Shown: positions 5,121 to 32,000, numbered from the stretch's first letter. The stretch: DNA of 32,000 bases from Raphidiopsis brookii D9 (GCA_000175855.1 ACYB01000027.1:1-32000), one strand, 5' to 3'. Translations and numbers: made by a program. The notes: generated by a model not told the origin, from the letters alone.

Positions 5121-5209
5121 TTGAGGTTAAAAATGTCTAAAAATCACAGGTGCGGTTTGAGGAAATAATTATTTTGATTGTAGCAGATGAAAAATAACTA
5201 ATGCAATAT

Positions 5210-6265: not shown

Positions 6266-6324
6266 AATATCAGTAATTTTTAAAAACTGCCCATACTCTG
6301 CAAATAAATATGTATCTTGAGGAA

Positions 6325-7005: not shown

Positions 7006-7030
7006 TTTATTCCTTTCTTTAATTTGTCTG

Positions 7031-7090
7031 AATGTTATAGAGTTAAAATGTTATAAACTTAGTCGGATAATGATGTTATATGATCATAAC
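7031..7090 (-). promoter_or_regulatory. three direct copies of ATGTTATA plus GTTAT-N6-ATAAC inverted repeat, upstream of the methylase remnant
   Basis: ATGTTATA occurs at 7032, 7048 and 7073. On the minus strand each reads TATAACAT, which contains a -10-like TATAAC. The inverted repeat GTTAT(atgatc)ATAAC lies at 7075-7090. The cluster sits 26-85 nt upstream of the ATG at 7005. A regulatory function is inferred only. Confidence 0.25.
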
Positions 7091-7185
7091 ACTACCCGAA
7101 TCTACTTAGCAAGCTTACTTGCTTGTTTTTATTACGTTTTATTAAGCATTGGAGAAAGGCGATCGCTCCTCAGTCTAAACTCCAG

Positions 7186-8904
7186 TTAAAATACTTGAGC
7201 TAAAACGAATGCAAATGCTGGGAGTTGAAGATGGATTTCTCCTGTTGATAATTTAGTTGCTTCACCAGACGTAACAACTAATATCTTTAGTTGAGTGAAA
7301 TCTCCATAACCATGGGGAGGTTTAAAACAAAAGTCAAATATGTCCTTACCCATATTCATGGCAACCAGAAAAGAATATTTTTCAGCTGGATCATGAATCA
7401 GCACGCACCGAATTCTATGATTTTCGTATAGTAAGGTGCGTCTACCATTTTTAATTAATTTATATTGCCAACGAGTTTCAGCAAGTTTGTGAATCAGTAC
7501 AAAAGTAGGGTGGTTTTTATTGTAGGGTTGAAAAGTTTTACGGTTAATTGGACCAAATTTCCAAGTACAGGCGGGATTATCAAACATATCTTCTCGTACG
7601 TAACAGTCGTGACCCATAGAATCTGGTTTTTTTTCATCCTCATGCCATCCTAATGCACCATCAAATTCTTGCTCTGTTCCTTGATAAATAGAAGGTGTTT
7701 GTGGTCCCAATATTAAACAAGCCAGAGCAAAATGTACGCGAATACGTGCTTGGTCTCGATTGTGAGTACGATGTAAAAACTCGTGGAAAACCCTGCTGGT
7801 GTCGTGGTTGTCTAGAAACATAATATTATTTTGCCAACCAGCATAATAGGAATGTGATGGTTCCAGGAACCCACAAAAATAATCTACCAAACTAGATAGC
7901 CAATTAGCATCACCCAATGAATGCTTAACTCTATAGTAGGTAGGATAATCAATCAAACCGGAAAATTTGGCCGAGTTATATTCAATCACCTCTTCGTGGG
8001 TGCTCCCCGCATGTTCAGCTATTTGCAAAAATTCTTTTTTTCCTAAAACGCTTGCATATCTTGATATTTCTTCTACGCAGGGTTCCCAAAAATCTAACCC
8101 AACGTGGCGTGCAGAGTCATAGCGAAAACCATCAATATCAGTTTCACCAATCCAGTACTTTAGATGTTGGATTAGTAATTCACGAACATAAGGGGTTTCA
8201 GTGCGCCAGTCCTCTAAAAAGCCAAATAGTCTTTGATTAACCATGTCTGTGTATTCTGGTCCATGAAATAGCAATGTATTCCTTGCTTCTATGGGAAAAG
8301 GCATAACCGCAGATTCATCACCCTGTATGTATTTGAACTCTCCCTGTGGTGGTCCACCATATTCTGGCCAGTTAATGCTATCAGCAATGTGATTAACAAT
8401 TACATCTAGAACAATGGCAATATCCAGTTCATGAGCCTTTTTGACCAGTTGACGTAAGCTGTGAATTGTACCTAAACGGGGATCAATCATCAATAAGTGA
8501 ATAGGATGATATCCATGATAGCCATCTGGAGCGTTGACGTATACGGGACTGAGAATAATTACTCTGATCCCCAGAGACTTGAGGTAATCCAAATGCTCGG
8601 TTACACCCGCAATTGTACCTCCATGACTTGAATGGGGACAAGAAAGGTCATAGTTAACTAAGCTTAAACGACTACGAATTGGATGTTTGCTGCGGGCAAA
8701 TCTATCAATCATGATAGAATAGAATAAACGTGAGTTCCAGTTTTTAGGACTGGATGTCATGGGTACAGATGGTTTTGGTCCGTAAACATGGTGATTATTA
8801 ACCATTCCCAAAAATACGGAGGGAATCTCTTTCATGGAGCGAGGAGCTTCATCGCAAACAAAACAAAAAATGGGATATTTCACTGATATGTTCAACGCCA
8901 TCAA
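7186..8904 (-). CDS. GH13 alpha-amylase-family glycoside hydrolase (catalytic part; gene appears to continue upstream through two frameshifts)
   Basis: GH13 conserved regions I-IV are present: DVIVNH, GFRYDSARH, LQIAEH, FLDNHD, with the catalytic Asp/Glu/Asp intact. The ORF-track start (TTG at 8904) is arbitrary. Confidence 0.85.
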   Translation of the reverse strand: MMALNISVKYPIFCFVCDEAPRSMKEIPSVFLGMVNNHHVYGPKPSVPMTSSPKNWNSRLFYSIMIDRFARSKHPIRSRLSLVNYDLSCPHSSHGGTIAGVTEHLDYLKSLGIRVIILSPVYVNAPDGYHGYHPIHLLMIDPRLGTIHSLRQLVKKAHELDIAIVLDVIVNHIADSINWPEYGGPPQGEFKYIQGDESAVMPFPIEARNTLLFHGPEYTDMVNQRLFGFLEDWRTETPYVRELLIQHLKYWIGETDIDGFRYDSARHVGLDFWEPCVEEISRYASVLGKKEFLQIAEHAGSTHEEVIEYNSAKFSGLIDYPTYYRVKHSLGDANWLSSLVDYFCGFLEPSHSYYAGWQNNIMFLDNHDTSRVFHEFLHRTHNRDQARIRVHFALACLILGPQTPSIYQGTEQEFDGALGWHEDEKKPDSMGHDCYVREDMFDNPACTWKFGPINRKTFQPYNKNHPTFVLIHKLAETRWQYKLIKNGRRTLLYENHRIRCVLIHDPAEKYSFLVAMNMGKDIFDFCFKPPHGYGDFTQLKILVVTSGEATKLSTGEIHLQLPAFAFVLAQVF

Positions 8905-8916
8905 TATCTATGTAAC

Positions 8917-9198
8917 CTACTCTATACTGATATCCCCCACCATTACCAATAGGGGAAGAATAACTGAAAACATCTTGAAGCCATTTTCAATTATGCCTTC
9001 CGTTTGTGTTGTAATGCGATCTATATCACAATACCCCTTTCCATCATTCAACTCATAAACTACCTGTCCAAAATCCGGATGTTTAGACACATGAACTCCA
9101 AAGGTAATAGAGATTTTTTCTTGATTTCTAAACACCCAGTTATAGGGTGCAATATCTGGATCTAAGTGTACTTCACAGTATTCATCAAAATAGTGCAT
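8917..9198 (-). pseudogene. probable N-terminal portion of the GH13 gene, separated from it by two homopolymer frameshifts
   Basis: It is in the same frame as 7186..8904 (9198 and 8904 are both 0 mod 3). Between 8871 and 8966 a different frame is open and reads FSYSSPIGNGGGYQYRVGYIDIDGVEHISEISHF. Changing A4 (8967-8970) to A5 and A6 (8865-8870) to A5 gives one continuous 670-codon ORF, 7186..9198. Confidence 0.5.
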
Positions 9199-9385
9199 GG
9201 TCAGAACTGGATTTACTAACAGTGTTTAGGTATTGCATATTTGCGGGATGATTTAAGATTTTCTCCTAATTTGAAAAATTTCTCTTTTGTTCCTCGCGGC
9301 GATCGCCTGCTAAAAATTCTTCCGCTCATTATATATCATCCTGTGCAGGTGCAACGCCTGGAAAATCTATGGTGACTGAGAATTC

Positions 9386-10735
9386 TCATTGGGTTCTTAC
9401 GTCGTTCATTTTTAGAACATCATTTAAAATTTGCTCATTGTTATTATCTCGGAAATAAAAATAATTGTACAAACAGATGGATATCGATAACATTATCATT
9501 CCCTCTATAATCATCAAAAATCCAACACCTCGACCTGGACCTGTGGCAATTAATTTGCCAATACTATTGGCAAGTATGCCATTAACATGCAGCATGGGCT
9601 CTAAAAATTTATCCGTTAGTGGACTGGCACTAAGATTACCAATAGCCACACCTAAGCCCACAGAAGTATGTAGAAATGAAAGCACTCGCCCTTGCACATT
9701 TGGATCAACGCTATTTTGCCAAATCGCACTGTTGTATCCTAAAACTAGGGGTAGGGTAAAGAAGGTAATAAACATACCCAGAGCTATAATTGAAACAGAA
9801 GGTTGGAATCCGGAAATTATTAGACCAATACCATTGAATGCGCTAAAAATGAATAGGGTGGAAATAGGCTTTTTACTTCCGCCCCAAAAGGTCATAAATA
9901 AGCTCCCAAGAATCATTCCACAGCCAGCAATCGACATAACAATGCCAAAATTTTGAGGGGAAGAAAAGGACAAGATTAGGGGATTAATCAAAACATTAGT
10001 CATACCGTCTAAAAAGAAATACAGTGTCATAAACATCAGTAAAATAATCAAAAAAATTTGTGATGAAATATTTTGCCAACCATCCACAATTTCATGAATA
10101 ATGGTAGAAAAACCTAGCCTGGATTTGATACTTCTTTCTGGTTCAGGGATATGAATGATTAAAAGAGTAAACAAACCAATAAAATAGGTACATAGATCAA
10201 TTATCAACAAGCCTTTAATTTGGATAATAGCAATAAGTATGGCCGCTAAAATCGGTGCGCCCAGTTGTCCTATGGCTGTGCTAAGATGAACCAATCCGTT
10301 GGCTCTTACAAGGTCATCTTTTTTCACCATCATTGGTAGGGCCGATCCCTTAGAAATCATTTGAAAAGAACCACAAACGGATGTAAAAAATGCTGTTATG
10401 TAGGTATGCCAAATTTGTAAGTTATCTGTTGCAATAAGCACTATGAGTACTAGAGTTACGGTAGCTGCGGCTAGGTCACTAAAAATTATGGTCCATTTAC
10501 GATTCGACCTATCCACTAATGCACCAACAAAGGGCGTGATTACTACTCCAGGTAGGGTTGTAAAAAACACGATTAAACTCAATCCCGCAACTTCGTGGGT
10601 GTTTTGATAAACCCAGATACCCAAACCAAAACCTGTCAAACGATTCCCAATTTCTGACAAAGATTGCCCTAACCAGAAAATAATAAATCTACGTAATTCA
10701 CCTACTATTAGTACCAGGTTAGTAGCATAGTCCAT
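9386..10735 (-). CDS. MFS transporter (EntS/MFS_3-like exporter)
   Basis: 449 aa, hydrophobic throughout with about 12 helices. The N-terminal LGQSLSEIGNRLTGFGLGIWVY is typical of the MFS_3 / enterobactin-exporter-like subfamily (from memory). Confidence 0.75.
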   Translation of the reverse strand: MDYATNLVLIVGELRRFIIFWLGQSLSEIGNRLTGFGLGIWVYQNTHEVAGLSLIVFFTTLPGVVITPFVGALVDRSNRKWTIIFSDLAAATVTLVLIVLIATDNLQIWHTYITAFFTSVCGSFQMISKGSALPMMVKKDDLVRANGLVHLSTAIGQLGAPILAAILIAIIQIKGLLIIDLCTYFIGLFTLLIIHIPEPERSIKSRLGFSTIIHEIVDGWQNISSQIFLIILLMFMTLYFFLDGMTNVLINPLILSFSSPQNFGIVMSIAGCGMILGSLFMTFWGGSKKPISTLFIFSAFNGIGLIISGFQPSVSIIALGMFITFFTLPLVLGYNSAIWQNSVDPNVQGRVLSFLHTSVGLGVAIGNLSASPLTDKFLEPMLHVNGILANSIGKLIATGPGRGVGFLMIIEGMIMLSISICLYNYFYFRDNNNEQILNDVLKMNDVRTQ

Positions 10736-10830
10736 AGATTTTCCTGTTATCTCCCCTTCTTTATTACAATACTATTGCCAATTTTTCTGGGTTCTCCGAT
10801 CTGGGATGCGCTATCCCGTTTAGGTTAGTA

Positions 10831-11859
10831 TTATTCTCGTGGTAGTGCATTAGCAACTACGACCATATCAATTAAATGTAATTTTTTTAATGTTTCATTT
10901 TGATTTACCTGTTGTTCAAGTTCCAAGATTTCCTCTACACTCTCAATTGGTTTAATTGGTCGATAGAGCCGAGCTTGAATTTGGGGATATTCAATATATG
11001 TGCCACCTTCCATAGTTTTATGTGTATAAAACTGGGAGTGGTAAGCTTCCCATTTCTTGATGGTAAATAGGGGTGTTGTGGGCAGTTGATAAAGTGCTGA
11101 TTCCGACTTGAATTCCTCTAAAAATATTGGTTGTAATCTAGGATTAAAGGGATTATCTAGGATAGTTTCTAACATTTCAAAAGGTATATATCTAACTCCT
11201 AATCCTGCACCTAAACCATTCTTACAAATTTTGGCAAATTCCGAGCGCGTAATTAAAACATGTTGATGAGCAAACTCCTTCTGGGCACGGATATGATAGA
11301 GGACGGGAGATTTACAAGCAAATATCACTAAAGAACCATTTGGCTTAAGGAAATTATAAAAAGCCGCAATACTTTCTTGGATAACATCTAAACAAATATG
11401 CTCAAAAATGTGGGAACAAACGATCAGGTCAAAAGGCCCATATTGGGCAATATCTGGACTTTGCATCACTTCATTGACAACATGGACTTTCTCACTATTG
11501 AGATGTGATGTATAAGCCAATAAGTTATTGTATTCCTGAGTTAGCCAAAAACCGTCATCTTTTAATTTTTTCAATAGTTCCTGATCATCATTCAGTAGAC
11601 ACTGAGCGACTAAGGAAGTGTGTAGAAATCTCCGGTGGTCAGGTTCGACTAAAACAATCTTTTTGGCTGTCCAAAAACGCGGTAGTAATCTGCCCAGTCC
11701 ACACCCAGCATCCAGAATAACTGCATCAGGGGTAATCAAGTCTTGAATGTTGTTGGACCAAACTTCCTGATCTCTGGCTTTCCAGGCTTGATGAGTAATA
11801 TCTGTAACCCGCTGGTATGGGTCAACTGTTTCATACACTGTAGCAGTAATCTTTTCCAT
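10831..11859 (-). CDS. class I SAM-dependent methyltransferase with unassigned ~140-aa C-terminal extension
   Basis: Motif I VILDAGCGLGRL, an acidic post-I LVEPD, and FDLIVCSHIFEH. The substrate is not inferable. Confidence 0.7.
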   Translation of the reverse strand: MEKITATVYETVDPYQRVTDITHQAWKARDQEVWSNNIQDLITPDAVILDAGCGLGRLLPRFWTAKKIVLVEPDHRRFLHTSLVAQCLLNDDQELLKKLKDDGFWLTQEYNNLLAYTSHLNSEKVHVVNEVMQSPDIAQYGPFDLIVCSHIFEHICLDVIQESIAAFYNFLKPNGSLVIFACKSPVLYHIRAQKEFAHQHVLITRSEFAKICKNGLGAGLGVRYIPFEMLETILDNPFNPRLQPIFLEEFKSESALYQLPTTPLFTIKKWEAYHSQFYTHKTMEGGTYIEYPQIQARLYRPIKPIESVEEILELEQQVNQNETLKKLHLIDMVVVANALPRE

Positions 11860-11957
11860 AATCTATACCTCAATAAAACTCCAAAAAAACTATTGGTAAT
11901 AGGTAATTACAACGATTATTGCCATTATAACACTGATATATAACATTGATAAAAGTG

Positions 11958-13352
11958 CTAACTTTCTCCCCCGACGACCACATCTCGAATCCTTAAACTA
12001 GGTCCACCACAACCTACGGGTAACCCATTCTGTCCCCCCTTACCACATCCACCAGATTCATCCCAGTGAAAATCATCCCCAATTCCTTCTATATCTGCTA
12101 AAGTCTGAAAAACATTGCCGGATAGGGTTACATCTTTTACCGGTTCCGCTATTGCTCCATTTCTAATCATCCATGCTTCACCTGCACTAAACGTAAACAT
12201 TTCTCCATTGGTCATTCCTCCTAACCAATTCCGTGCATATACTCCTTCTTTAATATCTGTAAATAAATCTACCACTGGTGTTTTACCTCTTTCTATCCAA
12301 GTGTTGGTCATCCGCACAATAGGGGAAAAATGATAGTCTAAACAACGAGCATTACCCGTGGGTTTTTCTCCCAATTTACCCGCAGTTTCACGGGAGTGCA
12401 AACGTCCTACTAATACCCCATCCTCAATTAATTGGGTGGTTGTGGCGGGCGTTCCCTCATCATCGTACAAATAACTACCCCGATGACCTGGAGATCCTGC
12501 ACCATCAAAAATTTGTAGTTCCTCTGGACCAAAACGTCTCCCCAAGGTCATCACTTCCAGTAAATCTGGATTCTCATAGGCCATGTCCGCTTCTGAAAGA
12601 TGACCGAAGGCTTCATGCACAAATAATCCTGTCAGTATGGGGTCAATAACTACAGTGTAGGTGTTACCTTTGACTGGTGGTAGAGATAAGGCCGTGACTG
12701 CTCTTTGGGCAGCTCCTTGTACTAAAGTGTCTAAATTGACTAAGTCATCATAATCTTTACGTGAACCTACTGTTTCTCTCCCAGTTTGTACTGTGTCCCC
12801 ATTCCTGGCTGTGGCAGCAAATCTCATTTCCATATCTACCCATGACTGCTCTATTAGGGTTCCTTCAGAAGTGGCAATTATTACTTTCTGACTACTATCG
12901 TTGTAACGAACGGATGTGGTCGTGATCCGAGAATCAACGCCCTTTAGTATTTCCCGGTAGCGATCGCATAATTGTTTTTTCTTTTTTAAAGGAACCGTGG
13001 ATGGGTCAATACCAGTTATGCCTAGTTTGTAAGTGGATTGAATAACAGGAATAGGAGCGAGAATGGTCTGTTCATCTCCGACTGTGCGTGCTGCGGAGAT
13101 AGCTTCTTGAATGCGTTCTTCAATATCGGCAATGTGGTTGAAGCTAGTTAAACCCCAACCACCTTTATGACAAGCCCGAACATGGGCACCCATGGAAACG
13201 CCTTCGCTAAGAGTTTCTACTTTATCACCTCGCAACAAGATATCGGTTCCCTCTGCTTCTTCCAGTCGAATCATTAAGTAGTCAACCTGATTTTTATAGC
13301 GAGCAATCAGGTAGTTAAGCAAATCATGGGTGTCCTTGGTTAGTCTAAACAT
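11958..13352 (-). CDS. tldD: TldD-family metalloprotease
   Basis: 464 aa with the HEAFGHLSEAD metal-binding motif and TldD/PmbA-family similarity throughout, including the C-terminal GGxGKGGQ..PVG..GP. Confidence 0.9.
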   Translation of the reverse strand: MFRLTKDTHDLLNYLIARYKNQVDYLMIRLEEAEGTDILLRGDKVETLSEGVSMGAHVRACHKGGWGLTSFNHIADIEERIQEAISAARTVGDEQTILAPIPVIQSTYKLGITGIDPSTVPLKKKKQLCDRYREILKGVDSRITTTSVRYNDSSQKVIIATSEGTLIEQSWVDMEMRFAATARNGDTVQTGRETVGSRKDYDDLVNLDTLVQGAAQRAVTALSLPPVKGNTYTVVIDPILTGLFVHEAFGHLSEADMAYENPDLLEVMTLGRRFGPEELQIFDGAGSPGHRGSYLYDDEGTPATTTQLIEDGVLVGRLHSRETAGKLGEKPTGNARCLDYHFSPIVRMTNTWIERGKTPVVDLFTDIKEGVYARNWLGGMTNGEMFTFSAGEAWMIRNGAIAEPVKDVTLSGNVFQTLADIEGIGDDFHWDESGGCGKGGQNGLPVGCGGPSLRIRDVVVGGES

Positions 13353-13388
13353 CTTTCTAGTTTTGTTTATAAGCTTGGCTATAATTAT

Positions 13389-13827
13389 TCAACCATCTTG
13401 ATCACTGTTAGGTCTAAAAACATATTTTTCAGCCACCTTCCAATAACGGGAAAATCTTTTCAGGTCAAGAAAACCATCATAATCAAAAAAGGGTTCCACT
13501 GCTAATACTTCCAAATCTAAATGGGGGCGAATCAAATCGCAAATTTGTGCAAATTTGGGACTGGGGCTCTTAGTAGTGATAACTAAACCAGTATTGTTTT
13601 CTCTGGCAAATCTAATCACTTCCTGTGCTACATCTCCCCGACGAATTTCCACTGGTAACTCTATTAGACATTCATAAATGAAAGTTATTCTTTTTAAACT
13701 AAGTTGCCATTCTGCAATTAAAAGCATCATCCCAGACCCAAATTGCTGAACTACCAGGATATTTCTTGAAAGCAGGACTATGGGGACTTAAACAGTCTCC
13801 GTTAACCCAAACTATTGGTTGATTCAT
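13389..13827 (-). pseudogene. small hypothetical protein of unassigned family (~145 aa) interrupted by a 1-nt homopolymer frameshift
   Basis: ATG at 13827, 16 nt after the HAD gene stop, opens MNQPIVWVNGDCLSPHSPAFKKYPGSSAIWVWDDAF*, with the stop at 13717-13719. ORF 13389..13730 continues in another frame as LLIAEWQLSLKRITFIYECL... Shortening the A4 run at 13720-13723 to A3 joins them as ...WVWDDALIAEWQLSLKR... Confidence 0.5.
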
Positions 13828-13842
13828 ATTCAATTAAATATA

Positions 13843-14655
13843 CTAAATATATATATTTACTAATTCAGCGGTTTTGGATGGTGTCAACTCCTGAACATTG
13901 GTCAACAGTATATTTGCACCTGCTTGCAGCATAATTTTCTGATAAGCATCTCTACGGGATGGAGTTTCCTGAACATGGGGTGGTAAAACTCCTACAGATA
14001 CCCAGGTTCGAGAACTGTCCAAAATTTTGGCTTTGGCTACAGTGTGCATATCCGCTACTGTATCCCCTACATATATAACCGGTTGTTTTTTGTTTTGGTC
14101 TTGTTTGGCAATTTCTAAAAGATTAATGGTAGCGAAAAGTCCTGTAGGGTCAGGTTTACCAGGTGCATCTTCCATGGCGATTAAAACTGGAGATTTTAAA
14201 CCTAAGCGACGCTCCAACACATAACTAGCAGATCCACGAGTTGCACCACTAAAAAATCCCCAGCTGATATTTGCCTGGGTCAGGGACTCCAAATAACTTG
14301 GTTCTAATAATAGGGGTTCATCACAAATATAACCATTCCAGTTTTCTGTGTCAGTACCGCGATAACGAGATTGAAAATAGGCAACAATGCTCTCATAATC
14401 TAATTGTAACTCTTCCCTTTGGTAACCCTGACTCACAAAATAACGGTAAATCAACTCTTGGGAACCCTCCCAATCATTGTTCCATATCCCCTCAGATTTG
14501 AGGTCGTCAATATCCGTAACCGTAGGACGATAGGCATAGTTAGTAAAATATTCTACTGTATCTGCCAAAGCACGGCGGTAAGAACCACTCACATCCCGAA
14601 TTACACCATCAATGTCAAAAACAATTATCATAATTAAGCTAAGAGCTAAATACAT
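13843..14655 (-). CDS. HAD-superfamily hydrolase (subfamily IA-like)
   Basis: Motif I VFDIDGVIRD (DxDG) and motif IV YVGDTVADM. The true start may be the internal MIIVFDIDG methionine. Confidence 0.8.
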   Translation of the reverse strand: MYLALSLIMIIVFDIDGVIRDVSGSYRRALADTVEYFTNYAYRPTVTDIDDLKSEGIWNNDWEGSQELIYRYFVSQGYQREELQLDYESIVAYFQSRYRGTDTENWNGYICDEPLLLEPSYLESLTQANISWGFFSGATRGSASYVLERRLGLKSPVLIAMEDAPGKPDPTGLFATINLLEIAKQDQNKKQPVIYVGDTVADMHTVAKAKILDSSRTWVSVGVLPPHVQETPSRRDAYQKIMLQAGANILLTNVQELTPSKTAELVNIYI

Positions 14656-14815
14656 TAAATCAAATTATTAGATTATCTGGCAACTTTGCACAAATGGGGA
14701 TCTTTGTCAAGACCAGATATTTGGGTGGAAACAAAAATATTGGCGTTGCAGAACATCTGATATTATGTATACGTAGCCAGGCGAAAACTATAAAATTAAA
14801 TTAAGGTGTGGAAAC

Positions 14816-15337
14816 ATGTTTAAAGTTTACCCTAAGCAGCTATTAACCTACTACTTCGAGGAACAATTTAGGTACTACCATTTGGTTTTTCTAGGGTTAC
14901 TAGCATTATCAGGAGTATACTCAATTAGCTACCTCAGGGGGCAAAATCAAGTTAAAAGTTCATTCAATCCTCCATCTGTACAGGTAGCTAAAGTGGTGAC
15001 AAACAGACCCAGTTCCATAAAGGTTGCCAGACCTGTCGTGAAGATCAATAAACAAAAAGCGGTCAAAGCTGTTTGGAATTTACGACAAGTACAACGGAAA
15101 GCCAAGGAGATTAAAACCCTTTCCCAGGGAGCTATTAATGTGGGTGTAGTTGTTAGCAGCTATCCAAAAATTAGTCAACCATTTTACACTGTCAAAGTGT
15201 TAGAAAATCACCCTGACAGCACCACCAGTCCGGTTTATTGGTTTCGAGTTTCCAGCTCTAATGGTGCAATTCAACCCCTAGATTTAGTAAGTAATAAATA
15301 CACAACTTTGGCAAACTGGAATCCCGATGGTATTTAA
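14816..15337 (+). CDS. hypothetical membrane-anchored protein
   Basis: 173-codon ORF with one N-terminal hydrophobic helix (LVFLGLLALSGVYSISYL). No recognisable domain. Confidence 0.45.
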   Translation: MFKVYPKQLLTYYFEEQFRYYHLVFLGLLALSGVYSISYLRGQNQVKSSFNPPSVQVAKVVTNRPSSIKVARPVVKINKQKAVKAVWNLRQVQRKAKEIKTLSQGAINVGVVVSSYPKISQPFYTVKVLENHPDSTTSPVYWFRVSSSNGAIQPLDLVSNKYTTLANWNPDGI

Positions 15338-15421
15338 CTAACTAATTCCTGACCACTTTCAGCCTTTGAGTAATCATGGTAACACCATCATCGCGAACGA
15401 TGACGGCAGAAATCCATTGGT

Positions 15422-16132
15422 TTACTGGTTGTAAGGGAGCAGTGCCAGTTTTAAATAACCCCCCGTACTAAGTAATTCCAAGTTTATTGGTGTAGGATTA
15501 AGATACTTATTAGGTTTAATAGTTTCTTCCATAGCGGTTCCCAGGAGGAAGTTATTACCTAATGGCTCCTTTACAATGGCATCAAAAGCATATTTTTCAC
15601 CCACCTTCACTTGTTGTGGTAACCTAAATTCCACCTGGGGAGGTTTTTTACCCGATGTCATTTGAGTTCGTTCTGACAAAATTTCTTGATGGGTAATTTG
15701 TGTACCCCTAATGTGCTGTCTTGAAGTGATAGCTGCATTTATGGCAAGAGGACTAGTCTTGTCGGAGGATAGACCCGTAATCCGGGTTACAGTTTCTGCA
15801 ATGATAGTCTTACCATTTGACTTCCAGGATTGTAATTTTGTCTGATAGCTCAATTTAGGGTATCTTTGCCAAAAGGATTTTAAAGACTGCTCCATAGCTT
15901 GTCGAGTTAATCCATCCCCATGGGTAAATTTGGAACTATAAAATCCCATGACTCCCTTGATGTCACCACGACTGGAAGCAGCATCAATTTCAGCAATCAG
16001 CTTTTTCAGTTGGGGGGGTGCATTACCTGGGGTTGATGTTTGTGTTTGTGCGTATGCACAACTAACTATATCCAGACTCAACCAGAATGAGAACAAAGCA
16101 GTACTAAAGAGTAGTTTTTGGTTTGGGTGCAT
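15422..16132 (-). CDS. secreted NTF2/SnoaL-like hypothetical protein; C-terminus probably altered by a frameshift (reconstructed gene 15342..16132)
   Basis: Signal peptide MHPNQKLLFSTALFSFWLSLDIVSCAYA-QT. If the C6 run at 15459-15464 is read as C7, the tail becomes STGGLFKTGTAPLQPVNQWISAVIVRDDGVTMITQRLKVVRN*, with the stop at 15342-15344. This looks more protein-like than the present 15-codon tail. Confidence 0.6.
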   Translation of the reverse strand: MHPNQKLLFSTALFSFWLSLDIVSCAYAQTQTSTPGNAPPQLKKLIAEIDAASSRGDIKGVMGFYSSKFTHGDGLTRQAMEQSLKSFWQRYPKLSYQTKLQSWKSNGKTIIAETVTRITGLSSDKTSPLAINAAITSRQHIRGTQITHQEILSERTQMTSGKKPPQVEFRLPQQVKVGEKYAFDAIVKEPLGNNFLLGTAMEETIKPNKYLNPTPINLELLSTGGYLKLALLPYNQ

Positions 16133-16368
16133 GAATAAACCAACAATTCAAATAAGTCTAGTGAGTTTAGTTAACAATAGCTAACAAGAGCTACTAATAA
16201 TAGTTTACTAAGTTGTCCGTGAGATGGGAAAATTCTGCGTTAAATAACAGGATATATTGCCATCCCTGTTGTATCCCATTGTAGGATCCAATTATAGGGT
16301 GCAATCAAAAAAAATGCAGTAACTACAAAAAAATCTCAGGAATAAACAGTATAACGGTATAAATTACT

Positions 16369-17487
16369 ATGGTAAACGGAAGGTTAAAACTATTAGTAGC
16401 TGCTAGTGGTACGGGTGGACATTTATTTCCAGCGATCGCTCTGGCCGAGAAATTGACGGAATATGATATCGAATGGTTAGGAGTACCCAATAGACTGGAA
16501 ACCCAGCTAGTGCCAAACCAATACCCCCTACATACTATCCCAGTGGAAGGTTTTCAGAAGGGTCTGAGTTTAGCTTCTTTAACTGTCATCTGGAAACTGG
16601 TCCGGTCCATTTTTTGGGTGAGACAGATTCTTCATCAAGGTCGGTTTCAAGGAGTATTCACTACAGGTGGCTATATCGCCAGTCCAGCTATTATTGCAGC
16701 TCGTTCCTTGGGGTTACCAGTTATTTTTCATGAGTCCAATGCTCTACCTGGAAAGGTGACCCGATTTTTCGGTTCCTATTGCACTAGAGTGGCTATAGGA
16801 TTTGACGTAACTACCAAATATTTACCCAATGCTAAAACTGTATGTGTTGGCACCCCCGTGCGATCGCAGTTTTTAAACCGCAAAGCCAATTCTCCACTAG
16901 AGTTACCCATACCCGATGAAGCACCCTTAATTGTAGTTTTTGGGGGTAGTCAGGGAGCAGTAGGGGTAAATCAATTGGTTAGACAAGCAGTAATTGCTTG
17001 GTGTAATGCAGGAGCTTATGTTGTCCACTTGACGGGAGATAAGGATCCTGATGCTAACAGTTTACAACACCCCCAATACATAGTTTTACCCTTCTATGAA
17101 AATATGGCAGGTTTGTTGGGTCGAGCTAATCTAGCTATTAGTCGTTCTGGAGCTGGGAGTTTAGCCGAGTTGGCAGTTTGTGGTACTCCTGCTATTTTAA
17201 TTCCCTATCCTTTTGCAGCGGAAGATCATCAATCCTATAATGCTGCTGTTTTTACCAAGGCTGGTGCTGCTTTAACTTTTCAACAATCAAAACTAACAGC
17301 AGTAATTTTACAGAACCAAGTTTTAGAACTATTAAAGTCGCCAACAATTTTACAAGGGATGAGTCATAGTGCTAAAGCTATAGCTGTTGTCGATAGTGCT
17401 GAGCAATTGGCTGAATTGGTGAGACAGATTTTCAGTTCCAACCACACCCAAACCAAGAGTTTAGAAAAACGAGAAATTTTCCACTGA
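16369..17487 (+). CDS. murG: undecaprenyldiphospho-muramoylpentapeptide beta-N-acetylglucosaminyltransferase MurG
   Basis: N-terminal AASGTGGHLFPAIALAEKL glycine loop, HESNALPG, FGGSQGA, and a length and order typical of MurG. Confidence 0.93.
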   Translation: MVNGRLKLLVAASGTGGHLFPAIALAEKLTEYDIEWLGVPNRLETQLVPNQYPLHTIPVEGFQKGLSLASLTVIWKLVRSIFWVRQILHQGRFQGVFTTGGYIASPAIIAARSLGLPVIFHESNALPGKVTRFFGSYCTRVAIGFDVTTKYLPNAKTVCVGTPVRSQFLNRKANSPLELPIPDEAPLIVVFGGSQGAVGVNQLVRQAVIAWCNAGAYVVHLTGDKDPDANSLQHPQYIVLPFYENMAGLLGRANLAISRSGAGSLAELAVCGTPAILIPYPFAAEDHQSYNAAVFTKAGAALTFQQSKLTAVILQNQVLELLKSPTILQGMSHSAKAIAVVDSAEQLAELVRQIFSSNHTQTKSLEKREIFH

Positions 17488-17583
17488 TTTTAACTCTTTA
17501 CTTCCCCACTAGTCAAGTTTTAGATTAGAATGAGGTATTGCAAACCATAGCAAGTTATAGCCGGATTTTCCCCGGAGGTACGA

Positions 17584-17883
17584 TTGACCAAATTTATCTT
17601 AAAAATTCTCTGGTTAGATGATAATGTGGCCTTAGCAGTGGACCAAGTTGTCGGTAAAGGTACTAGTCCCCTGACTAAATATTTCTTCTGGCCCCGTAAT
17701 GATGCTTGGGAAGAACTCAAGAAGGAGTTGGAATCCAAACACTGGATCAGTAATCCTGATCGCGTGGAATTACTGAACAAGGCCACAGAGGTGATTAATT
17801 ATTGGCAGGAAGAGGGTAAAAACCGCCCCATGTCTGAAGCACAGTTAAAGTTTCCCGAAGTTGCTTTCACTGGTAGCACTTGA
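17584..17883 (+). CDS. ycf65: 30S ribosomal protein PSRP-3 / Ycf65
   Basis: [44 protein letters not shown]...[15 protein letters not shown] is the Ycf65 signature as I recall it. TTG start at 17584, preceded by GGAGG at 17574-17578. Confidence 0.88.
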
Positions 17884-17905
17884 TTGCTCTCTCCGCCAAT
17901 TAAAC

Positions 17906-17947
17906 CTGCATGATGGTTACTACCACCATGCAGTCTGTTGTTTATTT
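17906..17947 (+). terminator. rho-independent terminator candidate between convergent ycf65 and atpC
   Basis: Stem CTGCATGATGGT (17906-17917), loop TACT, stem ACCACCATGCAG (17922-17933) with 1 mismatch. It is followed by the T-rich tctgttgtttatttta. Confidence 0.55.
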
Positions 17948-17952
17948 TATCC

Positions 17953-18366
17953 TCATACCATACCACCAGCAGCTTGGAAGCGAGCTCGAGCCCGTTTTAA
18001 TGCTGCCGTAGCCTGTATTTGGGCTTGCCTGTCTCCTCCTGCAACCTGGTTTAGTTTAGTTTGAGCTGCGTTAAACTCCGAACGAGCTTCCTCTAAATTA
18101 ATAGTGTCACCACGCTGAGCCCCATTTACCAGGATAGTTACTTCATCTTCTTCAACTTCCGCAAAACCACCTAAAAGAGCTATGGACTGCCAGTTGGCAT
18201 TTTTCTCTGCCCTTACACGCATTACACCTATGTCTAATGCGGTTAACATGGGAGCGTGACCACTTAGTACACCTAATTGACCAGTAGTGCTAGGGAGGAT
18301 TACCTCATCAGCAGGACCATCCCAGACGGTTTTATCTGGGGAAACTACACGAATGGTTAATGTCAT
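17953..18366 (-). CDS. atpC: F0F1 ATP synthase subunit epsilon
   Basis: [45 protein letters not shown] is a typical epsilon N-terminus. I prefer the ATG at 18366 (137 aa) over the ORF-track start at 18405. Confidence 0.9.
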
Positions 18367-18400
18367 CTGTCTGTTTTCCTTGATTATTTCTAATTTGTCA

Positions 18401-27381: not shown

Positions 27382-29778
27382 CTAGATATCTAAATCTGTT
27401 AGATTGAGCTTAGAACCATAAGTTTCAATAAACTCCCTCCTAGGAGCAACCCGATCACCCATTAGTATGGTGAATATTCTGTCAGCTTCTGCTGCATCCT
27501 CTATTTCCACCTGTTTCAGGGTTCTGGTTTCAGGGTTCATAGTAGTAGTCCACAGTTGTTCTGGCATCATTTCGCCCAAGCCCTTAAATCGCTGAATTGT
27601 GTAATTAGCGTTTCCAGGTAAGGTACTAATGTGTTGTTGTAGTTCTCGATCACTGTAACAGTAATTATAGTTCTTCCCTCTCTCTACTTTGTACAGTGGT
27701 GGACAGGCAATGTAGATAAATCCCTGTTCAATTAGTGATCTTTGGTATCTATAGAAAAATGTCAGCAGCAAGGTACGAATATGGGCCCCATCCACATCCG
27801 CATCTGTCATGATCACCACCCGATGATACCGCAATTGTGAAGCGTCAAACTCTTCACCTTTCACCCCTAAACCTAAAGCCGTAATTAATGATTGTACCTC
27901 ATTATTTTTATAAATTTTCGCATCATCGGTTTTTTCTATATTTAAAATTTTACCCCGTAGAGGCAAAATTGCCTGAGTCCGGCGATCGCGTCCTTGCTTG
28001 GCACTATTATGGACAAAAACTCCTGCTGCTAAAGCAAAGTTATGGGTATGGGGAACTTCTAAATCATAAACATCAAATTTCTCTGGTAAACTTTCCACAC
28101 TTACCACCCGGTGGTTATAGGTGGTGACAGCACTCCGTATTACAGTGGGTATAGACTGGTCATAATAGGGCATTAAGGAATCCTGTGGAGTGAGCAAACC
28201 AGCAGCTTGGTAATTTCCATCCCGCAACATAAATAAATGGTCAGGAGTGCAAATCAAAACCTGGTCATTATCCAAAGTTACCCTAACTACCTCAGCGTTG
28301 GTTTTGGTCCTGCGGACATGAAGAATTTTTTCTATTCCCACCTCACCATTTTCCCGTATGGTATAACAATAGTTTTCTTTACCTGCTGCTTGTTCAGCTA
28401 TCAAATCTGTAAAAGTAAGATTACGCCCATCCTTTAGAGAAACTAAAGTATTGCCCACAAAACAACCACCCGCACTGTCTCCTTCCACAATAAATATTTC
28501 CGACTCAGCAGGATCGCGGGAACTGCAGTCAGCTAATTTACCAGGTAAAGGGGAAGACTCCAAAACGGATTTTCTGCGAACCAGCTCCCGTGCGTGTCTA
28601 GCTGCTTCTGCAGCTTTAAAAGCCTGGATAGCCTTATCCAAAATAGAATCCGCAATACCAGGGTGAAATTCTAAATATTCCGTCAGCACTTCTCCCACCA
28701 GAGAATCCACAATGCCACGTACTTCCGTATTACCCAACTTAGTTTTGGTTTGTCCCTCAAACTCCGGATCGGGAACCTTCACGGAAATAACTGCAGTTAA
28801 ACCTTCCCTCACATGTTCACCGCTGAGATTGGATTCATTCTCCTTAATTTTATTACGTTTGCGGGCGATAGAATTCAAAGTTCTTGTCAGAACAGTCTTC
28901 AGACCTTCTAAATGAGTACCACCATCAATAGTGCGAATATTGTTAGCAAAACCTAAAACATTATCAGTATAAGCATCTGTACACCATTGTAAAGCCACCT
29001 CTACTTGAACATTATTGCGCTCACCTTGGACGTAGATAATTTCCTCATGTAAAGCCTGCTTATCTCGATTTATGTAGGACACATACTCCTTAATTCCCCC
29101 CTTATATTCATAAGTTTCTACCTTAGGGGTATCGGTTTTGAGGAGTTCCAAACGATGATCGGTAAAACTAATTTTCACCCCCGCATTGAGATAAGCCAAT
29201 TCTCGGAGACGACCGGCCAGGGTAATATAATCAAATTCAGTGCCAGTGGTAAAAATTTGGGCATCTGGTTTAAACTTTACGGATGTGCCAGTACGGGACT
29301 GTTGGTCTGGTTCTACTTGCAATTCAGTTGTGGGTGCACCTCGTTCATAACGTTGAGTATGAACCTTATGCTCTCGCCACACCGTAATATCCACTACTTC
29401 CGATAAAGCATTAACTACGGACACACCCACACCGTGTAAACCCCCAGAAACCTTGTAACCACCGCCTCCAAATTTACCACCAGCATGGAGTACAGTTAAC
29501 ACAGTTTCCAGAGCGGACTTACCAGTTTTAGGGTGAATGTCAGTGGGAATACCTCGACCATCATCGGTAACCGTACAGGAACCATCAGCATTGAGTTCTA
29601 CATCTACATGGGTACAGTAACCCGCCAAAGCCTCATCAACAGAGTTATCAACTACCTCATAAACTAGATGGTGCAGTCCTCGCGGTCCGGTAGAGCCAAT
29701 ATACATACCCGGTCGTTTGCGGACGGCTTCCAGACCTTCCAGAACTTGAATCTGATCGGCACTGTAACTGCTCGTCAT
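27382..29778 (-). CDS. gyrB: DNA gyrase subunit B, interrupted by a 153-aa mini-intein
   Basis: GHKL ATPase motifs ([28 protein letters not shown]), the Toprim EGDSAGG / SAKQGRDR motif split by the insert, and the C-terminal QRFKGLGEM. The extein totals 645 aa. Confidence 0.97.
28006..28464 (-). mobile_element. GyrB mini-intein (153 codons, no homing-endonuclease domain)
   Basis: It begins with Cys ([10 protein letters not shown], block A). Block B is TPDH and block F is [17 protein letters not shown]. Block G is VFVHN, followed by Ser+1. The codons were checked on the DNA: TGT at 28462-28464, AAT at 28006-28008, AGT at 28003-28005. Confidence 0.9.
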
Positions 29779-29934: not shown

Positions 29935-30852
29935 ATGGATCAATCAATTAGGTTAAATAGGGCTGTTAAGCTCATAGTGATTTGTGGTGCAACAGCAACG
30001 GGGAAATCCGGACTGGGGGTGAGTTTAGCACAAAGACTTGGTTGTGTCATTCTAGGTGCTGATTCCCGTCAGGTGTACCGCGAATTTAATATTGGAACAG
30101 CCAAGCCAACGGAGGAAGAACGGGGATTAGTACCCCATTATCTCATAGATATATGTGAACCAACGGAAACCTTGACAGTAGCAGATTATCAAGAACAAGC
30201 CCAACGGTTAATTGATAATTTGCCAGTTTCACCAATATTTTTAGTTGGTGGTACAGGTTTATATATTCGGGCTATTGTCCAGGGCATGAAAATTCCCAGG
30301 GTATCTCCACATCCCCAATTGCGCTCCCAACTAGAATCCTTGGGTCAACATCAACTTTATCAGATATTGCAACAGGTTGATGCAGTTGCTGCCAGAAAAA
30401 TTCACTCCCATGATTTGGTTAGGACTTTAAGGGCGTTAGAGGTGTATTATGTCACAGGTTCTCCCATATCTGAACAGCAGGGAGAGAGACCACCGACCTA
30501 CCCAATTTTACAACTTTATTTGGATTGTGAACCAGATGTTTTGGATTTGAGAATTTATGGGAGGACAAAGGAAATGATTAAAGATGGTTTAGTAGAGGAG
30601 GTAGAGTATCTATGTCAAAGATATGGTGTGAATTTACCGCTGTTGAATACCTTGGGGTATGCAGAAATTAAGCAATATTTAGCTGGGGAGATTAGTTTAG
30701 AAGCGGCAATAGATTTAATTGCTTTACACACCAGGCAATTTGCTAAGCGTCAACGAACTTGGTTTAGACAGTCTTCCAATTTAGAATATTTTGATGTTAA
30801 TAGTCCGGACTTATTAAATAGGCTTTGCAAGAGAATAGATCAGTTTATTTAA
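29935..30852 (+). CDS. miaA: tRNA dimethylallyltransferase MiaA
   Basis: P-loop GATATGKSGLG, DSRQVYREFNIGTAKP and GGTGLY, with the C-terminal TRQFAKRQRTWFR. Confidence 0.94.
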   Translation: MDQSIRLNRAVKLIVICGATATGKSGLGVSLAQRLGCVILGADSRQVYREFNIGTAKPTEEERGLVPHYLIDICEPTETLTVADYQEQAQRLIDNLPVSPIFLVGGTGLYIRAIVQGMKIPRVSPHPQLRSQLESLGQHQLYQILQQVDAVAARKIHSHDLVRTLRALEVYYVTGSPISEQQGERPPTYPILQLYLDCEPDVLDLRIYGRTKEMIKDGLVEEVEYLCQRYGVNLPLLNTLGYAEIKQYLAGEISLEAAIDLIALHTRQFAKRQRTWFRQSSNLEYFDVNSPDLLNRLCKRIDQFI

Positions 30853-30893
30853 TAAGATGATTGTTGACTGTTGATTAGTCTTTTCTCCTTCTC

Positions 30894-32000
30894 TTACTTA
30901 ATCCCATTTGGACTGAAAAAAGCTAGATTGGATTGATTGACTGTTGGCACTAAAACCCCCCTATCTAAATACTTATTCCCCCTTTCACAAGATGTTTCAG
31001 GACTGAATAAACAAGCATGACAAGCAGCCCAATGCAAAGAAGTCATACCCTGAAATGGTGTGTGTTCTGCACATAAAGGATCGGATGTACATAATTCCAT
31101 TTGCTGTAAAGCTTGGCGAATATGATAACTTAACTTCTCAGGAACGCCCAAACTGACTAATCCGCCCAAAGTTCCTTCACTGTCTGGTGATGCCGTATAA
31201 ATTAATATACCCGCCATCGGACCTTCTTCTTCTTCTGGACGTTTAGAGTAAATTCTTTCTTTTAAACTAGCTGCATTATATCCACATTCTACAGACATTT
31301 GTCGCATTAGGGCATGAGCAAAAGAGTGTAACAAAATATATCTTACATCGGAAAATTTGACTTTTGTAGGATCAAGGCTACGCACTTTACACCACTGTTG
31401 ATGAGCTTCTACGATTTCATTTTGGTAATCTTGCAATGGTTGACTTTTTTCCCATTGATTTAATTTTGCTTCATTAAATTCTATGAATATACCTTCTCCT
31501 TTACATTCAGTTGCTATTACCCATTTTGGCTGATTACGACTTAGTTTTACTTTACATTCCTGGGGGATTTCACCAAAATCTAGAAATTCTCCCGGTGATT
31601 GAATACGTGTAAACCCAATCAATGCACAAACTTCTCGTAATCTTTCAGCCAAGATAATTTGTGCAAAGTAGTCCCGATAATCTATGGGCAATTCAACTTT
31701 TCTTAGGTGGAAATCGGATGTATTTAATCCAGGGTCACATTGACGAATTACTTGCCATTCTGGAGTTTTTAAGTCTGTGGCTTTATGACTATCGGGAACA
31801 TCCAATGTTTGACTTTGTATTTGATTTTTCATTGCCGAGATTATTTCCCAGACTTTTTCTGTACTATATTTTGATAATTCTTGTAATAGTTCAGGGAAGC
31901 TACCTATGGCTCGTAGTAGTTCTAAATTACTTTTTAAACTTATAAGGTCAGTAGCCTTATTTAAAATATGCCAGTTTTGCGAAATTATTTGCGATAGTAA
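30894..32000 (-). CDS. DUF1998 (MrfA-type zinc-binding) domain protein, DrmB-like; 5'-partial, continues beyond the window
   Basis: LLHSFAHALMRQMSVECGY, GILIYTASPDSEGTLGGLV, and the Cys cluster C-x5-C...C-x2-C-x7-C (CTSDPLCAEH...AACHACLFSPETSCERGNKYLDR, nt 30987-31091). I translated 31833-32000 by hand in the same frame and found no stop, so the ATG at 31832 is internal. No helicase motif occurs in the visible 368 codons. Confidence 0.65.
   Translation of the reverse strand, partial: LLSQIISQNWHILNKATDLISLKSNLELLRAIGSFPELLQELSKYSTEKVWEIISAMKNQIQSQTLDVPDSHKATDLKTPEWQVIRQCDPGLNTSDFHLRKVELPIDYRDYFAQIILAERLREVCALIGFTRIQSPGEFLDFGEIPQECKVKLSRNQPKWVIATECKGEGIFIEFNEAKLNQWEKSQPLQDYQNEIVEAHQQWCKVRSLDPTKVKFSDVRYILLHSFAHALMRQMSVECGYNAASLKERIYSKRPEEEEGPMAGILIYTASPDSEGTLGGLVSLGVPEKLSYHIRQALQQMELCTSDPLCAEHTPFQGMTSLHWAACHACLFSPETSCERGNKYLDRGVLVPTVNQSNLAFFSPNGIK

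What the first reader, a model, noticed from the sequence alone, without database searches (positions are those of the whole stretch)
30894..32000. DUF1998 / DrmB-like four-cysteine protein opens a second defence-like locus at the right edge
The visible 368 codons carry the hallmarks I associate with DUF1998. These are an HS(F)AHAL helix, an aspartate/glycine-rich loop (SPDSEGTLGG) and a terminal Cys cluster ending ETSCERGNKYLDR. No helicase motifs precede them, which fits a stand-alone DrmB rather than a MrfA/YprA-type fused helicase. In DISARM, drmB follows drmA (a large helicase) in the same operon, so the gene just right of this window on the minus strand is the decisive one. The locus ends abruptly 41 nt from the convergent housekeeping gene miaA, and no PLD gene follows it.
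Basis: partly seen in the sequence, partly recalled or inferred. Interest (0 to 1): 0.7.

Follow-up and report, generated by a model that had tools for sequence, protein, structure and literature searches.

The report
Orphaned DrmB from a deleted DISARM island
The gene at the right edge is a genuine DrmB, the zinc-binding partner of the helicase in the known DISARM anti-phage system, but in this strain it is very probably all that survives of a 16-kb DISARM island after a 14.5-kb deletion, so it is an ordinary defence-gene relic rather than the start of a working defence locus.

Summary
Window 30894-32000 (-) is an open frame running off the edge. It matches NCBIfam DrmB_fam (385 bits, cut-off 240; profile 265-604 of 604) and Pfam MZB/DUF1998. 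The named motifs and the four zinc cysteines are 92-100% conserved in 75 homologues. It is a stand-alone DrmB, not a fused helicase, and no PLD gene follows it.

The window comes from Raphidiopsis brookii D9. Sister Cylindrospermopsis raciborskii strains (99% DNA identity) carry drmD-drmMI-(RelE/ParE-UvrD helicase)-drmA-drmB as a 16.4-kb island in the spacer between miaA and an ABC-2 permease gene. Other strains have that site empty.

D9's own protein (EFA73387.1, 601 aa, starting MRLW...) is reproduced exactly by joining the island's first 8 nt to drmB codon 40. That implies a 14,553-nt deletion removing drmD, drmMI, the UvrD-like gene, drmA and DrmB's 39 near-invariant N-terminal residues. 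No D9 DrmA, DrmD, DrmMI or UvrD-like protein is on record.

This is a known system and of low interest. D9 DNA beyond the window was not seen, so the deletion is inferred from the protein sequence.

The parts
30894..32000 (-). 3' part of drmB: 368 codons plus stop, equal to codons 270-637 of the 637-aa sister-strain DrmB. The gene continues past the window edge; the annotated D9 start is predicted at window-equivalent 32697-32699.
   Evidence: Open frame; NCBIfam DrmB_fam 384.8 bits, PADLOC DrmB E 6e-71, Pfam MZB; 100% identical to EFA73387.1 of R. brookii D9; full-length orthologue matches PDB 7S9V chain B at E 1e-177.
31008..31322 (-). MZB / DUF1998 zinc-binding domain (called the 'helicase allosteric relay' domain in the Serratia DrmAB structure)
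   Evidence: PF09369 covers fragment residues 227-331, profile 1-80 of 80; coordinates verified; role taken from PMC9142583.
31308..31328 (-). HSFAHAL helix motif
   Evidence: Translation verified; both His 100% conserved in 75 homologues.
31161..31190 (-). SPDSEGTLGG loop
   Evidence: Verified; PDSEGTLGG 92-100% conserved.
30987..31091 (-). Cysteine cluster: the four-Cys zinc site (fragment C304, C310, C327, C330) plus a fifth conserved Cys (C338) in ETSCERGN
   Evidence: 97-98% conserved; aligns with Serratia DrmB C559/565/581/584.
30877..30893 (.). 17 nt of island-specific sequence after the drmB stop codon; this is the right end of the DISARM island
   Evidence: Comparison of occupied (L092) and empty (L094) sites, whose flanks are 99.6% identical; the window spacer is identical to the occupied junction.
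30853..30876 (.). 24 nt remaining from the ancestral spacer between miaA and the ABC-2 permease gene
   Evidence: Aligns with the start of the 55-nt empty-site segment.
29935..30852 (+). miaA, a convergent housekeeping gene that flanks the island; not part of the system
   Evidence: ORF; IPPT family and the same synteny in sister strains and in empty-site strains.

Best explanation
The ORF is the C-terminal 60% of drmB, the stand-alone OB/DUF1998 zinc protein that forms a 1:1 complex with the SF2 helicase DrmA in class 1 DISARM.

In the R. brookii / C. raciborskii lineage, a 16.4-kb island (drmD, drmMI, a RelE/ParE-UvrD helicase gene, drmA, drmB; no drmC) is inserted in the 160-nt spacer between miaA and an ABC-2 permease gene. 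In the intact system, by analogy with Serratia, DrmMI marks the cell's own DNA. The DrmA C-terminal 'pivot arm' wraps the DrmB N-terminus, and the DUF1998 domain acts as a hinge when DrmAB loads on unmethylated single-stranded DNA ends.

In strain D9 a single 14,553-nt deletion has fused the first 8 nt of the island to drmB codon 40. This created a new ATG across the flank/island boundary and a 601-aa ORF (MRL + residues 40-637). It removed drmD, drmMI, the UvrD-like gene, drmA and the 39 near-invariant N-terminal residues of DrmB. The D9 gene is therefore a recent, still-open relic that cannot provide DISARM immunity.

Shown: the DrmB identity, the sister-strain island and its junctions, the empty site, the exact match of the deletion model to the D9 protein, and the absence of D9 partner proteins on record. 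Inferred: the D9 DNA beyond position 32000, loss of function, and the mechanism, which is transferred from Serratia.
For: Identity.
Source genome: P0001 = EFA73387.1, R. brookii D9, on a contig of 32,869 nt.
Sister loci: 98.9-99.8% identical in DNA with the same miaA-gyrB(intein)-sigma70 synteny. DrmA scores 1435 bits on the NF038325 equivalog. DrmD scores 1420 bits and DrmMI 1750 bits in PADLOC. The full island is in L092.
Empty sites: L094, L095 and L096, with clean junctions. Island GC is 37.9% against 42-43% in the flanks.
Deletion model: L092 1-2002 joined to 16556 onward gives a 601-aa ORF, MRLWNIDNTT..., the same length as P0001. Only the V90G and Q428E strain differences remain. There are 13 in-frame codons without a start codon upstream, preceded by TAA. 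Start-Arg-Leu 9-mers occur only 4 times in 16.4 kb.
Partners: no D9 member in the fully listed 90% clusters of DrmA, UvrD-like, DrmD or DrmMI, and none in the DrmA homologue search, whereas D9 RidA (EFA73666.1) is found. The D9 assembly had 27x coverage and its gaps are attributed to repeats.
N-terminus: residues 1-40 are almost invariant and conserved in Serratia DrmB. The DrmA pivot arm wraps the DrmB N-terminus.
Against: The D9 nucleotide sequence right of position 32000 could not be retrieved. D9 is absent from genome contigs and from the contig index, so the junction is inferred from the deposited protein sequence only. The predicted junction 24-mer was not found in metagenomes. The D9 contig ends no more than 170 nt beyond the annotated start for no identified reason. 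Stucken et al. estimate 100-150 kb of unassembled sequence in the D9 gaps. Within the window the gene is intact and differs from the sister strain by only 2 nt, so sequence decay gives no independent sign of pseudogenisation.
Confidence: 0.85

Rival explanations
1. D9 carries the complete DISARM operon. The contig merely breaks near the 5' end of drmB, the odd MRLW start is a contig-end sequencing or annotation artefact, and drmA and the other genes lie in an unassembled or unannotated gap.
For: The contig ends no more than 170 nt past the annotated start. Stucken et al. estimate 100-150 kb in gaps. Other draft assemblies also break inside this island, for example L006 inside drmA.
Against: The MRL start, the 601-aa length and the first-ATG-after-stop property are all predicted exactly by the island's left-edge sequence, and an artefact would not reproduce them. 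About 14.5 kb of non-repetitive sequence at 27x coverage should have assembled and been annotated, yet no D9 DrmA, DrmD, DrmMI or UvrD-like protein is on record while D9 control proteins are.
Confidence: 0.08
2. The surviving drmB is not junk. DrmB can act without an adjacent DrmA, either with a helicase encoded elsewhere or on its own, and D9 keeps it for that reason.
For: Full-length solo DrmB genes with no DrmA within 10 kb occur next to housekeeping genes in other cyanobacteria (L051 and L086 after a leuA-like gene, L042 after a permease). L051 and L086 are 79% identical with dN/dS about 0.11. The D9 ORF is intact over 601 codons.
Against: The D9 copy lacks the 39 N-terminal residues, which are near-invariant even in the solo genes and which contact DrmA in the solved complex. 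Its start codon is an accident of the deletion junction. It is 99.8% identical to the sister allele, so the open frame is explained by how recent the deletion is. DISARM genetics and structure make DrmB a subunit of DrmAB.
Confidence: 0.05
3. The ORF is the C-terminal DUF1998 module of a fused YprA/MrfA-, DruE- or ArmC-type helicase whose motor domains lie beyond the window edge.
For: DUF1998 is usually fused to such helicases, and the frame is open at the window edge.
Against: The exact D9 protein is 601 aa and the orthologue 637 aa. Both are covered end to end by the 604-position DrmB_fam profile and by Serratia DrmB, and neither has a helicase domain. The helicase DrmA is a separate gene 45 nt upstream in sister strains.
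Confidence: 0.01

Closest known systems
DrmB of the class 1 DISARM system of Serratia sp. SCBI (PDB 7S9V/7S9W; Bravo et al. 2022, PMC9142583)
   Same: Collinear over the full length (E 1e-177, residues 2-632 against 4-617). Same four-Cys zinc site, same C-terminal DUF1998 domain, same conserved N-terminal segment in the intact orthologue, and encoded separately from the helicase.
   Different: The D9 copy lacks residues 1-39 and has no DrmA partner on record. The cyanobacterial island lacks DrmC, and no DrmMII was seen in the island.
Class 1 DISARM island of Cylindrospermopsis raciborskii sister strains (e.g. GCA_026929835.1; NCBI names DrmD and DrmA 'DISARM system' proteins)
   Same: Same insertion site, the same 41-nt junction with miaA, and 99.7-99.8% DNA identity over drmB.
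   Different: Those strains keep drmD, drmMI, the RelE/ParE-UvrD gene, drmA and the full 637-aa drmB. D9 keeps only 8 nt of the left edge plus drmB codons 40-637.
ARMADA type II (ArmA-ArmD; bioRxiv 10.1101/2025.09.15.676423; PMC13463889)
   Same: The sister-strain island combines a Snf2-type helicase, an adenine methyltransferase, a YprA-family helicase module and a UvrD/GajB-like helicase with a RelE/ParE-like N-terminus, and lacks a PLD nuclease. This is the same set of parts as ArmA-D.
   Different: Here the helicase and the DUF1998 module are split into DrmA and DrmB, and all four score as DISARM proteins above curated cut-offs. The UvrD-like gene lies upstream, not downstream, of the YprA-like helicase. 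Direct homology to ArmD was not tested.
MrfA / YprA and DruE fused helicase-DUF1998 proteins
   Same: Share the MZB/DUF1998 zinc domain.
   Different: [quoted passage not shown]

Membership tests
DrmB family (NCBIfam NF038324) | Score above the curated cut-off of the DrmB_fam profile | tested here: met
   Window fragment 384.8 bits against a cut-off of 240, profile 265-604 of 604. Full-length orthologue 707.8 bits, profile 1-604.
DrmB family (NCBIfam NF038324) | C-terminal DUF1998/MZB domain with the four-cysteine zinc site | tested here: met
   PF09369 46.7 bits against 24.2. The Cys residues align with C559/565/581/584 of 7S9V_B and are 97-98% conserved.
DrmB family (NCBIfam NF038324) | Stand-alone protein, not fused to a helicase core | tested here: met
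   601-aa (D9) and 637-aa (sister) proteins with no helicase domain.
DrmB family (NCBIfam NF038324) | Complete N-terminal half, including the conserved first ~40 residues that are wrapped by the DrmA pivot arm | tested here: not met
   D9 protein starts MRLW followed by residue 41 onward. Residues 1-39 are missing, although they are near-invariant in relatives. This is met in sister strains.
Class 1 DISARM system | drmA (SF2 helicase) immediately upstream of drmB in one operon | tested here: not met
   Present in sister strains (1381 aa, NF038325 1435 bits, 45 nt upstream). For D9 no DrmA is on record, and the deletion model removes it. D9 DNA itself was not seen, so the 'not met' rests on the protein records.
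Class 1 DISARM system | drmD (SNF2 helicase) and drmMI (N6-adenine methyltransferase) | tested here: not met
   Both present in sister strains (1420 and 1750 bits). There is no D9 member in their clusters.
Class 1 DISARM system | drmC (PLD nuclease) downstream of drmB | tested here: not met
   The island ends 17 nt after the drmB stop codon, and tblastn finds no DrmC in the window lineage. DrmC is reported as non-essential and is absent in 14 of 70 surveyed loci.
Class 1 DISARM system | Anti-phage protection and methylation of host DNA | not testable with these tools
   Needs phage challenge and methylome data.
MrfA/YprA- or DruE-type fused helicases | DEAD/DEAH helicase core in the same polypeptide, N-terminal to DUF1998 | tested here: not met
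   The full-length proteins contain no helicase domain, and the helicase is a separate gene.

The most novel reading that the evidence does not exclude
The truncated drmB of D9 might not be inert debris. It could be an example of DrmB persisting and acting as a solo gene, as suggested by the full-length solo DrmB genes kept under purifying selection next to leuA in other cyanobacteria (L051 and L086, dN/dS about 0.11, no DrmA within 10 kb). That would imply a DrmA-independent or trans-acting role for the OB/DUF1998 protein.
Probability: 0.06. Interest if true: 0.55.

Novelty: new member of a known kind. Interest (0 to 1): 0.2.

Why it matters
It mainly matters as a correction. A defence-system caller or a reader seeing DrmB at a contig edge would infer a DISARM system in R. 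brookii D9, but the evidence says the system has been deleted and only a decapitated drmB remains. This fits the genome reduction described for this strain. It also documents DISARM as a strain-variable island in a bloom-forming toxic cyanobacterium: present, empty and gutted alleles occur at one site among strains with about 99% identical flanks. That could help explain strain-specific cyanophage susceptibility. The side observations may interest defence-system specialists: a RelE/ParE-UvrD helicase built into most cyanobacterial class 1 DISARM loci, and solo DrmB genes under purifying selection. Both lie outside this window.

Tried and rejected
1. Retrieving the D9 sequence right of the window failed. 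Exact-protein contig look-ups for the window's miaA and for P0001 found nothing.
2. Two genome-contig scans returned no Raphidiopsis or Cylindrospermopsis locus. One used the window fragment. The other used only the N-terminal 270 residues, in case the window itself was masked. D9's own PFPGWMVC motif fitted a search pattern, so D9 is not in that collection and the representative genomes of the genus lack drmB.
3. An exact search of metagenome contigs for the predicted deletion junction found nothing.
4. No intrinsic terminator-like hairpin was found in the drmB-miaA spacer.
5. I considered the 1413-aa SNF2 protein at window 879-5120 as a displaced DrmD. Rejected: its DrmD hits cover only the helicase-C motif (E about 1e-18) and its best match is PbeA. 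The real DrmD is a 1054-aa protein inside the island.
6. I considered the fragmented DISARM genes of L011 as natural pseudogenes. Rejected: gyrB, the sigma factor and other housekeeping genes are fragmented too, so these are assembly frameshifts.
7. I first read the MRLW start as a G36R change plus loss of two Asp codons, or as contig-end sequencing error. The exact deletion model replaced this.
8. No microhomology or target-site duplication was evident at the island borders or at the deletion endpoints.
9. Direct comparison of the UvrD-like protein with E. coli ArmD (z5902) was not carried out.

Full report
**Observation.** The minus-strand frame from 30894 to the window edge at 32000 has no stop in 369 codons, so the protein is cut off at its N-terminus by the window. 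The 368 visible residues match three independent profile libraries:
- Pfam MZB/DUF1998 (PF09369, E 5.4e-12, 46.7 bits against a cut-off of 24.2, residues 227-331)
- four PADLOC DrmB models (best E 6e-71)
- the curated NCBIfam DrmB_fam model (384.8 bits against a cut-off of 240)

The NCBIfam match covers profile positions 265-604 of 604, so about 264 N-terminal residues of a normal DrmB lie outside the window. Against 75 DrmB homologues from GTDB species representatives, the two His of HSFAHAL are 100% conserved, PDSEGTLGG 92-100%, and the five C-terminal Cys 97-98%. miaA ends at 30852 and the drmB stop codon is at 30894-30896, leaving a 41-nt gap.

**Identity of the protein.** The fragment is 100% identical to EFA73387.1, a 601-aa 'conserved hypothetical protein' of Raphidiopsis brookii D9 on a 32,869-nt contig. 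Its 90% cluster contains a 637-aa Cylindrospermopsis raciborskii protein (P0121). P0121 matches DrmB_fam over the whole profile (707.8 bits). It also aligns end to end with the solved Serratia sp. SCBI DrmB (7S9V chain B, E 1e-177). The four zinc cysteines of that structure (C559/565/581/584) align with the window's cysteines.

**What lies to the right, in sister strains.** D9's own DNA beyond the window could not be obtained. Several C. raciborskii assemblies are 98.9-99.8% identical to window 25-32 kb. They show the same order: drmB, convergent miaA, intein-containing gyrB, sigma-70. In GCA_026929835.1 (L092) the full block is:

| Gene | Size | Best match |
|---|---|---|
| ABC-2 permease (divergent flank) | 270 aa | - |
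| DrmD | 1054 aa | PADLOC 1420 bits |
| DrmMI | 1412 aa | PADLOC 1750 bits |
| UvrD-like helicase | 722 aa | no Drm model |
| DrmA | 1381 aa | NF038325 equivalog, 1435 bits against 950 |
| DrmB | 637 aa | DrmB_fam 707.8 bits |
| miaA (convergent flank) | 305 aa | - |

This is a class 1 DISARM system without drmC and with one extra helicase. The apparently fragmented genes in one long-read assembly (L011) are assembly errors, because its housekeeping genes are fragmented too.

**The island and its borders.** Other strains have miaA directly followed by the ABC-2 permease gene (L094, L095, L096). Consecutive accession numbers, such as CS-505 EFA70528/EFA70529, suggest the same layout in many strains. 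L094 and L092 are 99.6% identical in both flanks. The island (L092 ~1995-18369, 16.4 kb, GC 37.9% against 42-43% in the flanks) sits between ...GCATTTAA and AATCAACAGTC.... The drmB stop codon is 17 nt from the island's right end. In the window, 30877-30893 is island tail and 30853-30876 is ancestral spacer. So the 'abrupt end' next to miaA and the lack of a PLD gene are properties of the island as it exists in this lineage. The closest Nostocales relatives with 67-69% identical DrmB (Anabaena cylindrica, Nostoc FACHB-152) still have drmC overlapping the drmB stop. Others lack it (L002, L012, L013), and one keeps a 25-codon drmC remnant (L035). Across 70 assessable loci drmC is absent in 14. 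DrmC is reported to be dispensable for DISARM.

**What D9 itself has.** The D9 protein begins MRLWNIDNTT..., where all relatives read ...SVMVMGL(D/E)DWN... after a nearly invariant 35-residue N-terminus. That N-terminus is also conserved in Serratia. The island's left edge in the sister strain reads GCATTTA-ATG-AGA-TTA-GTC, and ATG-AGA-TTA encodes M-R-L. Joining L092 1-2002 to L092 16556 onward (drmB codon 40, TGG) gives an ORF with these properties:
- It starts at that ATG, which straddles the flank/island boundary.
- That ATG is the first start codon after an in-frame TAA 13 codons upstream.
- It is 601 aa long, exactly the length of EFA73387.1.
- It differs from EFA73387.1 only at two strain polymorphisms (V90G, Q428E).

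Start-Arg-Leu 9-mers occur only four times in the 16.4 kb upstream, so finding one exactly at the island edge by chance has a probability of roughly 0.005. The implied deletion is 14,553 nt. It removes drmD, drmMI, the UvrD-like gene, drmA and drmB codons 1-39.

Independent evidence agrees. The fully listed 90% clusters of DrmA, the UvrD-like protein, DrmD and DrmMI contain no D9 sequence. A DrmA homologue search shows nothing between the C. raciborskii cluster and 71% identity. D9's RidA, from the island's left flank, is found as a positive control. The D9 genome was assembled at 27x coverage, with residual gaps attributed to repeats. Fourteen kilobases of unique sequence would therefore be expected to be assembled and annotated if present.

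I conclude with about 0.85 to 0.9 confidence that D9 carries a gutted DISARM island. The caveat is that the junction is inferred from a protein record, not read in DNA.

**Function.** In the intact system the mechanism is taken from Serratia. DrmA and DrmB form a 1:1 complex. The DrmA C-terminal pivot arm wraps the DrmB N-terminus and completes an OB fold in trans. The DUF1998 domain acts as a hinge when unmethylated single-stranded DNA is loaded, and DrmMI protects the cell's own DNA. D9's DrmB lacks both DrmA and the N-terminal segment at that interface, so it should not confer DISARM immunity. Within the window it differs from the sister allele by only 2 nt, one synonymous and one Q to E. 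The deletion is therefore recent, and the open frame is not evidence of retained function.

**Side findings.**
1. The UvrD-like gene between drmMI and drmA has an N-terminal RelE/ParE-like domain. Pfam ParE_toxin matches 17 of 18 orthologues, and a profile of the domain hits the archaeal RelE structure 1WMI at E 1e-4. That is the architecture described for ArmD of the DISARM-related ARMADA II system. The gene is present directly upstream of drmA in 21 of 25 assessable cyanobacterial loci but in only 1 of 30 from other phyla. The ARMADA/YprA preprint text I searched does not mention such a gene in DISARM.
2. Three cyanobacterial loci have a full-length DrmB with no DrmA within 10 kb. Two of them (L051, L086) share a leuA-like upstream neighbour, are 79% identical and have dN/dS of about 0.11. 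This hints at a maintained solo DrmB.

**Verdict.** The prediction that a DISARM locus opens here holds for sister strains but very probably not for this genome. DISARM is well known, and NCBI's pipeline already names the sister-strain genes. The finding is a new, truncated member of a known kind and of low interest.

Noticed in passing
L092:10001-12169 (sister strain; outside the window), and 21 of 25 assessable cyanobacterial DrmAB loci among L012-L091: A 722-aa helicase gene sits between drmMI and drmA. It has a RelE/ParE-like N-terminus (Pfam ParE_toxin in 17 of 18 orthologues; PDB 1WMI aRelE at E 1e-4) fused to a UvrD/GajB-like core. This is the architecture reported for ArmD of ARMADA II. 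It is nearly restricted to cyanobacterial class 1 DISARM (1 of 30 loci in other phyla) and is not mentioned for DISARM in the ARMADA/YprA preprint text searched.
   Followed up: partly
L051:9992-11860, L086:7835-9694, L042:5995-7824: Full-length DrmB genes with no DrmA, DrmC or DrmMI within 10 kb, embedded among housekeeping genes (a leuA-like gene upstream in L051 and L086, a permease in L042). L051 and L086 are 79% identical with dN/dS about 0.11, suggesting a maintained solo DrmB.
   Followed up: partly
window 879-7005 (-): The other defence-like locus in the window. A 1413-aa protein has a PbeA-like N-terminus (PADLOC E 1e-38) and an SNF2-type helicase core. Upstream of it is a 351-aa ORF that consists only of a Type ISP C-terminal specificity domain (PF18135, E 6e-86), and then a 226-aa ORF with no hits. 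It looks like a fragmented Type ISP/IIG restriction-modification gene next to a helicase. It is not the DrmD of the DISARM island.
   Followed up: partly
window 27382-29778 (-): gyrB (798 aa) carries an intein inserted in the Toprim region (precomputed Intein_splicing hit in the identical sister-strain gene). It is conserved in all Cylindrospermopsis loci examined.
   Followed up: no
L035:8298-8372; also L002, L012, L013 and L005: drmC has been lost repeatedly in the Nostocales clade nearest the window. L035 retains a 25-codon drmC fragment 96% identical to Anabaena cylindrica DrmC directly after drmB. Overall drmC is absent in 14 of 70 assessable DrmB loci.
   Followed up: partly
L046, L047, L049, L050, L052, L056, L065, L066 (non-cyanobacterial loci): A weakly UvrD-like ORF (25-31% identity to the cyanobacterial gene) lies downstream of drmB, between drmB and drmC where drmC is present. 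In the non-cyanobacterial loci in general, DrmA aligns only from about residue 150-170 of the cyanobacterial DrmA, so it is either shorter at the N-terminus or too diverged there to align.
   Followed up: no
L011 (GCA_002321945.1) and the 3.48-Mb CENA302-type assembly: All genes in this region, including gyrB and the sigma factor, are split by frameshifts. These are long-read assembly errors that could be mistaken for pseudogenised DISARM genes.
   Followed up: yes
window 31661-31945 (+): A 94-aa ORF antisense to drmB. It lies entirely inside the conserved drmB coding region and is most likely spurious.
   Followed up: no
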